A stretch of 64,000 nt of DNA from a phage, in the sequence record PQ478073.1, one strand, 5' to 3'. The translations under genes were made by a program, and so were the position numbers. The notes below the pieces were generated by a model, which searched no databases, was not told the DNA's origin, and worked only from the letters and a program-made list of their open reading frames with translations. This document shows, one piece after another, positions 12,564 to 13,040 of the stretch; position 1 is the first letter of the stretch; each line of letters starts with the position of its first letter.

Positions 12564-13040
12564 ATGATTCATGAACACCGAGGTAATCTGTTTGAATTAT
12601 TCAGTACTGTAACAGATGATAAAACAGCAATACATATAATTGCTCATGGTTGTAACGCACAGGGTAAAATGGGTTCAGGTTTTGCAAAAGAGCTAAGAAA
12701 TCGTTACCCAATGGCATATGATGATTATAAAGCATATGAAAAGGAAATGGGATTTCTTAGAATTGGACAAATTGCATATTCAGCAATTAACGATAATTTG
12801 ATTATTGCAAACTGTATTACCCAAAAAATGTACGGTAATGACGGTGCTAAATATGTCAGTTATGATGCAATCGACGATGTGTTCAAACATCTAAATTATT
12901 TTTGTAAAGTTGATCGAGATGTTCATGTACACTTCCCGAAAATTGGAGCCGATTTGGGCGGCGGTAACTGGAACGTTATCAAAGAAATCATTGATCACCG
13001 ACTGGTCAATGCAGAAAAACACTTATACATTCTAAAATAA
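12564..13040 (+). CDS. macro-domain-like protein (158 aa)
   Basis: IIAHGCNAQGKMGSGFA (Asn plus Gly-rich loop) and HFPKIGADLGGGNW resemble the two conserved macro-domain motifs (NAAN..GGGV and FPxIGxGxxG). Confidence 0.55.
   Translation: MIHEHRGNLFELFSTVTDDKTAIHIIAHGCNAQGKMGSGFAKELRNRYPMAYDDYKAYEKEMGFLRIGQIAYSAINDNLIIANCITQKMYGNDGAKYVSYDAIDDVFKHLNYFCKVDRDVHVHFPKIGADLGGGNWNVIKEIIDHRLVNAEKHLYILK

What the first reader, a model, noticed from the sequence alone, without database searches (positions are those of the whole stretch)
12564..13040. Macro-domain-like protein: possible ADP-ribose-processing counter-defence enzyme
Motifs IIAHGCNAQGKMGSGFA and HFPKIGADLGGGNW correspond to the two signature loops of macro domains. 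Phage macro domains can reverse ADP-ribosylation imposed by host toxins or degrade ADP-ribose-derived signals; together with the 2H enzyme and the two Nudix hydrolases this suggests a nucleotide-signal-destroying toolkit.
Basis: partly seen in the sequence, partly recalled or inferred. Interest (0 to 1): 0.5.

Follow-up and report, generated by a model that had tools for sequence, protein, structure and literature searches.

The report
Jumbo-phage macro-domain ADP-ribose hydrolase
This 158-residue gene of a jumbo E. coli phage really does encode a macro-domain enzyme that cuts ADP-ribose off other molecules. It is already labelled as such in public records, and close relatives have recently been shown to defeat bacterial anti-phage systems, so it is an ordinary new member of a known family.

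Summary
The ORF at 12564-13040 (+) is real. Both quoted motifs are in it, and it is a genuine macro domain: solved-structure hits reach 8e-16, and an AlphaFold model (pLDDT 94.5) matches BT1257, SCO6735, Poa1p, DarG and TARG1.

The window is an Asteriusvirus jumbo coliphage, 99.9% identical to phAPEC6. RefSeq already calls this gene 'macro domain-containing protein' (PBECO4 gp028, 121Q gp544).

It belongs to the TARG1/DarG-like class but has Gln87 where DarG and TARG1 have the catalytic Lys. His28, Asn31 and Gln87 are invariant in the family. They match the residues shown to be essential in SCO6735 (thymidine-ADPr DNA hydrolase) and in phage Adpp (ADPR-1''-phosphate phosphatase). T4 Tk.4/AdfM, which T4 needs to resist DarTG2, has the same motifs.

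Sequence cannot decide between these two activities: Tk.4 and Adpp are closer to each other than either is to this protein.

The phage genome has no NARP1, NARP2 or KptA genes. I therefore favour an AdfM-like removal of base-linked ADP-ribose from nucleic acid (about 0.4) over Adpp-like phosphatase action (about 0.3).

The 'signal-destroying toolkit' idea is only weakly supported. Verdict: new member of a known kind, low to moderate interest.

The parts
12564..13040 (+). CDS of the 158-aa macro-domain protein (orthologue of PBECO4 gp028 / 121Q gp544)
   Evidence: ORF; RefSeq annotation; PDB, PHROG and PADLOC hits; AF2 model and Foldseek
12636..12686 (+). Loop 1 motif IIAHGCNAQGKMGSGFA (residues 25-41). 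His28 and Asn31 are invariant in the family. They are equivalent to Adpp H24/N27, SCO6735 H24/N27 and Poa1p H23.
12810..12824 (+). Strand N83-C-I-T-Q87. Gln87 occupies the position of the catalytic Lys of TARG1 (K84), DarG (K80) and PhiKZ AdfM (K77). It is equivalent to the essential Gln85 of SCO6735.
   Evidence: alignments; invariance; mutational data in PMC9411070
12825..12863 (+). Family-typical loop K-M-Y-G-N-D-G-A-K-Y-V-S-Y (Y90, G91, D93, G94, K96, Y97, S99 and Y100 are conserved). It resembles the loop of the NARP1-embedded macros of Vibrio phages RYC and 1.063.O and of Pseudomonas phage phiPsa374.
12930..12971 (+). Loop 2 motif HFPKIGADLGGGNW (residues 123-136), the diphosphate-binding glycine-rich loop. 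It has no equivalent of TARG1 Asp125.
12554..12557 (+). GGAG ribosome-binding site, 6 nt before the ATG
   Evidence: read directly from the sequence
12523..12552 (+). Terminator-like hairpin (10-bp stem, 4-nt loop, T-run) ending 12 nt before the start codon. It separates the macro gene from the upstream small ORFs.
11332..11733 (+). Neighbour: Nudix hydrolase. It is syntenic with the macro gene in Rak2-like jumbo phages. It is a possible but unproven downstream partner (ADPR to AMP + ribose-5-P).
6657..7067 (+). Neighbour: small 2H-phosphoesterase candidate (H57-V-S59, H127-I-T129). Its association with the macro gene is unproven.
10111..11223 (+). Neighbour: CCA-adding tRNA nucleotidyltransferase, part of the conserved HPF-CCA-Nudix-Grx...Macro block

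Best explanation
The gene encodes a small, stand-alone, catalytically competent macro-domain hydrolase of the TARG1/DarG-like (ALC1-like) class. It belongs to the 'Gln-type' branch that includes SCO6735, BT1257, T4 Tk.4 (AdfM) and the phage Adpp proteins. It binds the ADP-ribose moiety through its two glycine-rich loops. It cleaves the bond at C1'' of the distal ribose without a lysine nucleophile: Gln87, held in place by Asn31, positions the ribose and a water molecule attacks, as proposed for SCO6735. In this phage, which has no NAD+ reconstitution pathway, the most likely job is to strip base-linked ADP-ribose from phage nucleic acid during replication, so that the phage escapes a DarTG2-type defence as T4 Tk.4/AdfM does. 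The main target would be thymidine-ADPr placed on single-stranded DNA by host DarT2-type toxins, and possibly uridine-ADPr on RNA. Shown here: the ORF, the fold, the class, the conserved residues and the genome content. Inferred: the substrate, the mechanism and the counter-defence role.
For: Fold and class. Gln replaces the catalytic Lys, and H28, N31 and Q87 are invariant in 50 homologues. In SCO6735, Q85A and N27S abolish hydrolysis of thymidine-ADPr DNA, and the protein rescues E. coli from DarT (PMC9411070). SCO6735 also reverses U-ADPr on RNA (PMC13036486). T4 Tk.4 has the same AHGCN...N..TQ motifs, and its knockout sensitises T4 to DarTG2 in E. coli (bioRxiv 10.1101/2025.11.20.689424). 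The top viral structural match is a Tk.4 protein. BT1257 and SCO6735 are the closest solved relatives, and an NJ tree places them inside the family, but with only 43% bootstrap support. The best defence-library match is DarG. The whole PBECO4 genome has no Adps, Namat, Nampt or KptA homologue with E below 0.1. T4 is likewise a phage without these pathways that still keeps such a macro.
Against: Identity to SCO6735 and Tk.4 is only 29%. The DNA-contacting lysines of SCO6735 (K34, K89) are Ser38 and Gly91 here. T4 Tk.4 also has Ser at the K34-equivalent position and has a shorter loop in the K89 region. The highest-scoring relatives outside the Rak2-like clade are NARP1-embedded macros (68-74 bits). 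Members 42-51% identical lie next to NARP1, NARP2 or KptA genes, which points to small-molecule ADPR-1''P chemistry. Enzymatic activity of T4 Tk.4 on DNA has not been shown. Deep tree nodes have at most 49% bootstrap support. Tk.4 and Adpp score 59 bits against each other, so the activity cannot be read from sequence.
Confidence: 0.4

Rival explanations
1. It is an Adpp/Poa1p-type ADP-ribose-1''-phosphate phosphatase. It converts ADPR-1''P to ADPR, which a Nudix enzyme could then split into AMP and ribose-5-phosphate. ADPR-1''P is made by RES-domain NAD+ phosphorylases such as aRES, or arises as a by-product of 2'-phosphate removal during RNA repair.
For: Adpp of Vibrio phage Gary is a macro domain of the same Gln-type. 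It converts ADPR-1P to ADPR and, together with NARP1, overcomes aRES; H24A and N27A kill it, and both residues are invariant here. The best-scoring outside relatives are NARP1-embedded macros of Vibrio phages 1.063.O and RYC (74 and 68 bits, 33-35% identity) and share the Q-x-x-Y-G-x-D-G loop. Of 66 non-Rak2 relatives, 3 have NARP1 genes, 5 have NARP2 genes and 1 has a KptA homologue within 10 kb. The family profile matches Poa1p at 1e-15. There is a conserved Nudix 0.8 kb upstream and a 2H candidate nearby. The phage also has Sir2 with a Nudt16-like Nudix, Pnkp, Rnl1 and RlaP elsewhere in the genome.
Against: This genome has no Adps/Namat or Nampt/Nmnat, so ADPR cannot be rebuilt into NAD+. 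It has no KptA to generate ADPR>P. Dephosphorylating ADPR-1P alone does not reverse NAD+ depletion. The one tested Adpp is distant from this protein (16 bits, 24% identity). The neighbouring Nudix has no ADPR-specific signature. Proximity to NARP genes may reflect anti-defence islands: in L039 the macro sits beside a NADAR domain, the fold of T4's anti-DarTG1 enzyme.
Confidence: 0.3
2. It acts on RNA as part of a translation/tRNA-repair block. It would remove ADP-ribose from RNA bases, 2'-OH groups or terminal phosphates of tRNA or mRNA modified by host toxins, so that the CCA-adding enzyme, Pnkp and Rnl1 can restore them.
For: The order lysozyme-HPF-CCA-Nudix-Grx-(YqeY)-...-Macro-...-(PTH2)-neck is conserved in jumbo phages of Escherichia, Klebsiella and Xanthomonas down to 45% macro identity. 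SCO6735 and TARG1 reverse U-ADPr on RNA. A PNKP-type phosphatase or a KptA homologue lies next to relatives.
Against: The synteny is confined to one phage lineage and may be inherited gene order rather than function. A terminator-like hairpin separates the macro gene from the upstream genes. No RNA-specific feature was identified.
Confidence: 0.12
3. It degrades ADP-ribose-derived immune signals (Thoeris cyclic ADPR isomers, His-ADPR and the like) together with the 2H and Nudix enzymes.
For: Iyer et al. 2022 (PMC9503650) predicted on contextual grounds that phage Macro, NADAR and Nudix domains mainly target soluble ADPr derivatives. The genes do occur in the same genome.
Against: No macro domain of this clade is known to cleave such signals. 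The characterised phage macros act on DarT2 damage or on ADPR-1P. The 2H and Nudix assignments are generic. The genes are not an operon.
Confidence: 0.05
4. It reverses protein mono-ADP-ribosylation (phage- or host-imposed), or it is only an ADP-ribose reader without catalysis.
For: SCO6735 and TARG1 also hydrolyse protein-linked ADPr. Macro domains can act as readers.
Against: No ADP-ribosyltransferase is annotated in the PBECO4 genome. Invariant H28, N31 and Q87 argue for catalysis.
Confidence: 0.08

Closest known systems
T4 Tk.4 = AdfM (anti-DarT factor macrodomain; HIDEN-SEQ preprint 10.1101/2025.11.20.689424)
   Same: Both are stand-alone ~155-aa phage macro domains in coliphages that lack NAD+ reconstitution genes. 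They share the AHGCN...N-x-x-T-Q motifs, with Gln in place of the DarG Lys. A Tk.4 protein is the top structural match among viral proteins.
   Different: Only 29% identity and 38.5 bits. Tk.4 has a short post-Gln loop (QFQPGPNFEY), whereas this protein has QKMYGNDGAKYVSY. The genomic neighbourhoods differ (tk/vs region versus the HPF-CCA-Nudix block).
Adpp, the NARP1-associated ADPR-1''-phosphate phosphatase (Vibrio phage Gary KNV71_gp137; bioRxiv 10.64898/2026.01.28.702374)
   Same: Same Gln-type macro clade. The residues shown to be essential (H24, N27) are conserved. Other NARP1-embedded macros (RYC, 1.063.O, phiPsa374) are the best-scoring outside relatives and share the YG-x-DG loop.
   Different: This phage has no Adps or Namat, so the defining operon context is absent. 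The tested Gary protein is only 24% identical (16 bits).
SCO6735 (Streptomyces coelicolor) and BT1257 (Bacteroides thetaiotaomicron; PDB 5e3b, 2fg1)
   Same: These are the closest solved structures (8e-12 and 8e-16; TM 0.76-0.83). They have the same H-x-C-N and N...G/T-Q motifs. Q85 and N27 are essential in SCO6735. The post-Gln loop is similarly long.
   Different: They are cellular proteins. The SCO6735 DNA-binding lysines K34 and K89 are not conserved here. Identity is 29%.
DarG antitoxin macrodomain, PhiKZ AdfM (gp104) and human TARG1
   Same: Same ALC1-like fold class and the same ADPr-binding loops. DarG is the best match in NCBIfam and PADLOC.
   Different: These use a catalytic Lys (K80, K77, K84), and TARG1 also uses Asp125. 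This protein has Gln87 and Gly132 at those positions. There is no DarT-binding C-terminal domain. Scores are only 16-20 bits.
Yeast Poa1p (ADP-ribose 1''-phosphate phosphatase, PDB 6lfq)
   Same: Same class and the H-x-C-N motif. The family profile matches over the full length at 1e-15.
   Different: Poa1p has Ser where this protein has Gln87, and it has a 20-residue insertion. The Poa1p Ser30 equivalent is Lys35 here.

Membership tests
Macro domain superfamily (Pfam PF01661) | Three-layer alpha/beta/alpha fold with a mixed six-stranded sheet | tested here: met
   The AF2 model (pLDDT 94.5) has 7 strands and 5 helices. Foldseek finds 217 PDB macro-domain hits at E<=1e-3, top TM 0.83.
Macro domain superfamily (Pfam PF01661) | Score above the Pfam gathering threshold | tested here: not met
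   16.4 bits versus a cut-off of 22. The model is insensitive to this divergent branch: many homologues do pass it, and PDB sequence hits reach 8e-16.
Macro domain superfamily (Pfam PF01661) | Two glycine-rich ADP-ribose-binding loops (Asn-containing loop 1; G-x-x-G-G loop 2) | tested here: met
   Residues 25-41 and 123-136 align with these loops in BT1257, SCO6735, Poa1p, DarG and TARG1.
DarG/TARG1 lysine-type glycohydrolases | Catalytic Lys after the central strand (TARG1 K84, DarG K80), plus Asp125 in TARG1 | tested here: not met
   Gln87 and Gly132 occupy these positions, and Gln87 is invariant in the family.
DarG antitoxin (NCBIfam NF048014) | Full-length two-domain protein scoring above the equivalog cut-off | tested here: not met
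   32.9 bits versus a cut-off of 250. Only the macro part (profile positions 18-139 of 338) matches.
SCO6735-like Gln-type hydrolases | Asn27 and Gln85 equivalents (both essential in SCO6735) | tested here: met
   N31 and Q87 are invariant.
SCO6735-like Gln-type hydrolases | DNA-contacting Lys34 and Lys89 | tested here: not met
   Ser38 and Gly91 occupy the aligned positions. Lys35, Lys88 and Lys96 are nearby but not equivalent.
SCO6735-like Gln-type hydrolases | Hydrolysis of thymidine-linked ADP-ribose on ssDNA | not testable with these tools
   Needs a biochemical assay.
AdfM (T4 Tk.4 type) | Detectable homology to Tk.4 with shared active-site motifs | tested here: met
   38.5 bits, 29% identity, shared AHGCN and TQ motifs. 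Tk.4 of Acinetobacter phage 133 is the top BFVD hit.
AdfM (T4 Tk.4 type) | Protects the phage from DarTG2 | not testable with these tools
   Needs phage genetics.
Adpp / NARP1-AP | His24 and Asn27 equivalents | tested here: met
   H28 and N31 are invariant.
Adpp / NARP1-AP | Encoded in or next to an Adps-Namat (NARP1) operon | tested here: not met
   No Adps, Namat, Nampt or Nmnat hit with E below 0.03 anywhere in the window or in the 348-kb PBECO4 genome. None is annotated.
Adpp / NARP1-AP | ADPR-1''P to ADPR phosphatase activity | not testable with these tools
   Needs LC-MS with purified protein.

The most novel reading that the evidence does not exclude
In Rak2-like jumbo phages the macro gene is kept inside a conserved translation-repair block (ribosome hibernation factor, CCA-adding enzyme, Nudix, glutaredoxin, YqeY, peptidyl-tRNA hydrolase). 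In that setting the macro enzyme might act on RNA rather than DNA or a small molecule. It would strip ADP-ribose that host toxins put on tRNA or mRNA bases or ends, so that the phage's own tRNA-repair enzymes can finish the job. That would be an RNA de-ADP-ribosylation counter-defence not yet described for phages. A related possibility is that this Gln-type clade is bifunctional (T-ADPr DNA glycohydrolase plus ADPR-1''P phosphatase), so that one small enzyme could blunt both DarTG2 and aRES.
Probability: 0.1. Interest if true: 0.6.

Novelty: new member of a known kind. Interest (0 to 1): 0.27.

Why it matters
Macro domains are among the commonest accessory genes of large phages: 56% of jumbo phages have one (PMC9503650). 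Only in 2025-2026 were any of them given tested roles (AdfM against DarTG2, Adpp against aRES).

This Asteriusvirus protein sits between those two tested types, and its genome lacks the NAD+ rebuilding partners. That makes it a clean test case for whether the Gln-type phage macros are specialists or dual-purpose enzymes. It would also show whether therapeutic jumbo coliphages of this genus are intrinsically resistant to DarTG2-carrying E. coli.

The finding in itself adds nothing beyond the existing database annotation.

Tried and rejected
1. DarG-type lysine mechanism: rejected, because Gln87 replaces the Lys.

2. Membership of a NARP1-AP operon: rejected. tblastn with Adps (two phages), Namat, Nampt and Nmnat against the window and the full PBECO4 genome found nothing below E 0.03.

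3. KptA/Tpt1-driven Appr>p pathway: no KptA was found.

4. Deciding the activity by phylogeny: NJ with 300 bootstraps gives at most 49% support for all deep nodes. The phmmer matrix shows Tk.4 and Adpp closer to each other than either is to this protein.

5. Net charge or pI as a DNA-binding indicator: uninformative, since PhiKZ AdfM is acidic yet acts on DNA.

6. Virion packaging: the phAPEC6 structural paper does not mention macro, Nudix or NAD, and the RefSeq 'virion structural protein' labels do not include this gene.

7. T4-type late promoter upstream: TATAAATA is absent from the whole window. No convincing sigma-70 promoter lies between the hairpin and the ATG.

8. Assigning the Nudix genes to ADP-ribose pyrophosphatases: NCBIfam gives only weak, generic matches.

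9. Active-site geometry from model coordinates: not possible, because coordinates are not exposed.

Full report
**Observation.** The window carries an ATG-initiated ORF of 158 codons at exactly 12564-13040 on the + strand. A GGAG lies six bases upstream of the ATG. The two quoted peptides are present at residues 25-41 and 123-136. The small overlapping ORFs on either strand are trivial by comparison.

**Source and existing annotation.** The 4 kb around the gene is 99.9% identical to Escherichia phages phAPEC6 and UB, and 98-99.7% identical to 121Q and PBECO4. All are jumbo myoviruses of the genus Asteriusvirus.
- Pharokka-style annotations call it 'phosphatase', after PHROG 335 (1e-45).
- The bare observation is therefore not new.

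**Is it a macro domain?** Yes.
- The Pfam Macro model alone is sub-threshold (16.4 vs 22 bits).
- Sequence search of solved structures gives BT1257 at 8e-16, SCO6735 at 8e-12, Poa1p at 9e-7 and DarG at 2e-3.
- A profile of 50 homologues raises these to 6e-27, 1e-20, 1e-15 and 8e-12, with TARG1 at 1.6e-10.
- An AlphaFold2 model built on that alignment has pLDDT 94.5 and pTM 0.90.
- Foldseek ranks BT1257, SCO6735, Poa1p, DarG and TARG1 first (TM 0.70-0.83), ahead of the coronavirus and MacroD-type domains.
- Among predicted viral structures the top hit is the Tk.4 protein of a T4-like Acinetobacter phage.
- The protein thus belongs to the ALC1/TARG1-like class of macro domains.

**Active site.** I verified my remembered TARG1 sequence against PDB. 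I then aligned this protein with TARG1, two DarG macrodomains, PhiKZ AdfM, SCO6735, BT1257, Poa1p, T4 Tk.4 and a set of NARP1-associated phage macros.
- The catalytic lysine of TARG1 (K84), DarG (K80) and PhiKZ AdfM (K77) is Gln87 here. TARG1 Asp125 is Gly132.
- His28, Asn31, Asn83 and Gln87 are invariant in the family alignment.
- The same His-x-Cys-Asn ... Asn-x-x-(Thr/Gly)-Gln pattern is found in SCO6735, BT1257, T4 Tk.4, Felixounavirus macros and all NARP1-associated macros. Poa1p has Ser at the Gln position.
- In SCO6735, Q85A, Q85E and N27S abolish activity. The authors propose a lysine-independent, water-mediated cleavage at C1'', with Gln positioning the distal ribose (PMC9411070).
- In the phage enzyme Adpp, H24A and N27A abolish function.
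- All residues with mutational support in either relative are conserved here, so the protein is very probably an active hydrolase rather than a reader.

**What relatives are known to do.** Four experimentally anchored relatives matter.
- SCO6735 efficiently removes thymidine-linked ADP-ribose from DNA and rescues E. coli from DarT. It also reverses uridine-linked ADP-ribose on RNA.
- T4 Tk.4 was renamed AdfM. It is the single T4 gene that becomes essential on a DarTG2 host, and a clean knockout sensitises T4.
- PhiKZ gp104, also named AdfM, is a lysine-type DarG2-like macro that de-ADP-ribosylates DNA.
- Adpp of Vibrio phage Gary is a Poa1p-like macro encoded between Adps and Namat. It converts ADPR-1''-phosphate, the product of the RES-domain defence aRES, to ADPR, so that NARP1 can rebuild NAD+.

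Iyer et al. had predicted from context that phage macro, NADAR and Nudix domains mostly attack soluble ADPr derivatives, and they noted that 56% of jumbo phages carry a macro domain.

**Where this protein sits among them.** By phmmer score (extended):

| Relative | Bits |
|---|---|
| NARP1-embedded macros of Vibrio phages 1.063.O and RYC (33-35% identity) | 74, 68 |
| BT1257 | 62 |
| Felixounavirus macro | 54 |
| SCO6735 | 49 |
| T4 Tk.4 | 38.5 |
| Poa1p | 29 |
| DarG | 20 |
| Gary Adpp | 16 |
| PhiKZ AdfM | 16 |

- The family loop after Gln87 (QKMYGNDGAKYVSY) resembles that of the RYC and phiPsa374 macros and is longer than in Tk.4.
- A neighbour-joining tree nests SCO6735 and BT1257 inside the family. 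That grouping has only 43% bootstrap support, and every deep node has at most 49%.
- T4 Tk.4 and Gary Adpp, which have different assigned activities, score 59 bits against each other. That is more than either scores against this protein or against SCO6735.
- In this clade the substrate therefore cannot be inferred from sequence. The enzymes are either promiscuous at the C1'' bond or switch targets readily.

**Genome context.** I fetched the whole 348-kb PBECO4 genome and searched it and the window with tblastn.
- Queries were Adps (two phages), Namat (two), Nampt, Nmnat and E. coli KptA. Nothing scored better than E 0.03, and the best hit was only the Nudix box.
- The phage thus lacks NARP1, NARP2 and KptA.
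- It does encode RNA-repair and NAD-related genes elsewhere: Sir2 next to a Nudt16-like Nudix, RlaP, Pnkp, Rnl1 and a WGR-only protein.
- In the window, the macro gene follows a terminator-like hairpin (12523-12546).
- It lies downstream of a lysozyme, an HPF-type ribosome hibernation factor, a CCA-adding enzyme, a Nudix and a glutaredoxin. It lies upstream of the neck, dNMP kinase and tail-sheath genes.
- This order, often with YqeY and PTH2 added, is conserved in related jumbo phages down to 45% macro identity. These include Xanthomonas phage XaC1, and in one contig Nudix and glutaredoxin are fused.
- The block is confined to one lineage, so conserved order may be inheritance rather than function.

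**Context of relatives elsewhere.** Of the 80 closest IMG/VR loci (38-62% identity), 14 share that block. Of the other 66, the following lie within 10 kb of the macro gene:
- NARP1 genes in 3 loci.
- NARP2 genes in 5 loci. In L039 the order is Nmnat-NADAR-Macro-x-Nampt.
- A KptA homologue in 1 locus, 0.8 kb upstream.
- Other immediate neighbours are a PNKP-type HAD phosphatase, calcineurin-like phosphoesterases and a nucleoside deoxyribosyltransferase-like protein.

This places the family within the phage NAD+/ADP-ribose gene network. It does not discriminate between the two activities, because NADAR plus Macro is also exactly the pair T4 uses against DarTG1 and DarTG2.

**The 'toolkit' claim.**
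- The 2H candidate (6657-7067) has two HxS/T motifs and a 25.6-bit 2H-SAK hit, just below the cut-off. It is a plausible 2H enzyme.
- Both Nudix proteins are real. Their best NCBIfam matches are weak and generic (RppH, MutT, YtkD; NudE only at 6e-4).
- The second Nudix (47882-48346, minus strand) lies among tail genes.
- Nothing ties any of these proteins to Thoeris-type signals. The toolkit is a reasonable speculation, not a finding.

**Conclusion.** The protein is a bona fide, probably active, Gln-type macro-domain hydrolase.
- I favour an AdfM-like role, the removal of base-linked ADP-ribose from nucleic acid (0.4). The genome lacks the partners that would give an ADPR-1''P phosphatase a purpose. 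T4 is a precedent for a coliphage that lacks those pathways yet keeps such a macro against DarTG2.
- The Adpp-like phosphatase role (0.3) is a serious rival, supported by the nearest outside relatives and their gene neighbourhoods.
- An RNA-directed role within the translation-repair block (0.12) and the remaining ideas are less likely.

It is a new, uncharacterised member of a known and recently characterised family, already annotated as a macro domain, so interest is low to moderate.

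Noticed in passing
window 1-64000 (both strands); PBECO4 genome L001, L004-L011: The octamer TATAAATA (the T4-type late-promoter -10 box) is absent from the whole 64-kb window, against 10.2 +/- 3.1 expected from dinucleotide-preserving shuffles. It occurs only 15 times in the 348-kb PBECO4 genome. TATAAAT occurs 23 times in the window but is never followed by A. The avoidance is unexplained.
   Followed up: partly
window 12523-12552: A strong terminator-like hairpin (10-bp stem AAGGACTCTG/CAGAGTCCTT, 4-nt loop) has T-runs on both strands. It ends 12 nt before the macro start codon, so the macro gene needs read-through or an unrecognised promoter.
   Followed up: partly
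window 6657-7067 (+): A 136-aa ORF (PHROG 12204, 'unknown function') has two HxS/T motifs (H57-V-S59, H127-I-T129) and a near-threshold Pfam 2H-SAK hit. It is a very small 2H phosphoesterase candidate, annotated as hypothetical in all records seen. It is conserved in 11 of 14 Rak2-like loci.
   Followed up: partly
window 31213-31806 (+): This ORF has a weak YAcAr/SLOG-family hit (20 bits). It is the orthologue of PBECO4 gp006 'DprA-like'. It may be another NAD/ADPr-network domain and sits next to thymidylate synthase.
   Followed up: no
window 47882-48346 (-): A second Nudix hydrolase (Pfam 57 bits; PHROG 1198 MutT/NUDIX) is embedded among tail and virion genes on the opposite strand. Iyer et al. 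suggest such enzymes may be packaged, but there is no evidence of packaging here.
   Followed up: partly
L039 7404-11138 (IMG/VR UViG_3300016713_000228): A tight same-strand cluster reads Nmnat - NADAR - Macro - small ORF - Nampt. A macro (44% identical to ours) and a NADAR are thus embedded inside a NARP2-type NAD+ salvage operon. The aRES preprint describes macro association only with NARP1.
   Followed up: partly
L060 8679-10438 (IMG/VR UViG_3300036781_000418): A KptA/Tpt1 homologue (41% identical to E. coli KptA) lies 0.8 kb upstream of a family macro on the same strand, after thymidylate synthase. This is the classical Appr>p / Appr-1''p producer-consumer pairing.
   Followed up: partly
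L017 3715-4392; L015/L020/L021/L025 around 3000-4100: In related jumbo phages the Nudix and glutaredoxin genes upstream of the macro are fused into one 225-aa protein (L017). A YqeY-domain gene and a PTH2 peptidyl-tRNA hydrolase join the block, giving a translation/tRNA-centred gene island.
   Followed up: partly
PBECO4 record 66388-67140 and 65840-66391 (L004 24143-25440): Outside the window, the phage encodes a Sir2 protein directly followed by a Nudt16-like Nudix. It also encodes RlaP, Pnkp and Rnl1. This matches the sirtuin-centred RNA-repair system that Iyer et al. predicted for jumbo phages.
   Followed up: partly
T4 tk.4 (L024 4923-5390) versus Vibrio phage Gary Adpp: T4 Tk.4 (genetically anti-DarTG2) and Gary Adpp (biochemically an ADPR-1''P phosphatase) score 59 bits against each other and share all active-site motifs. 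The two published functions may therefore belong to one bifunctional enzyme type.
   Followed up: partly
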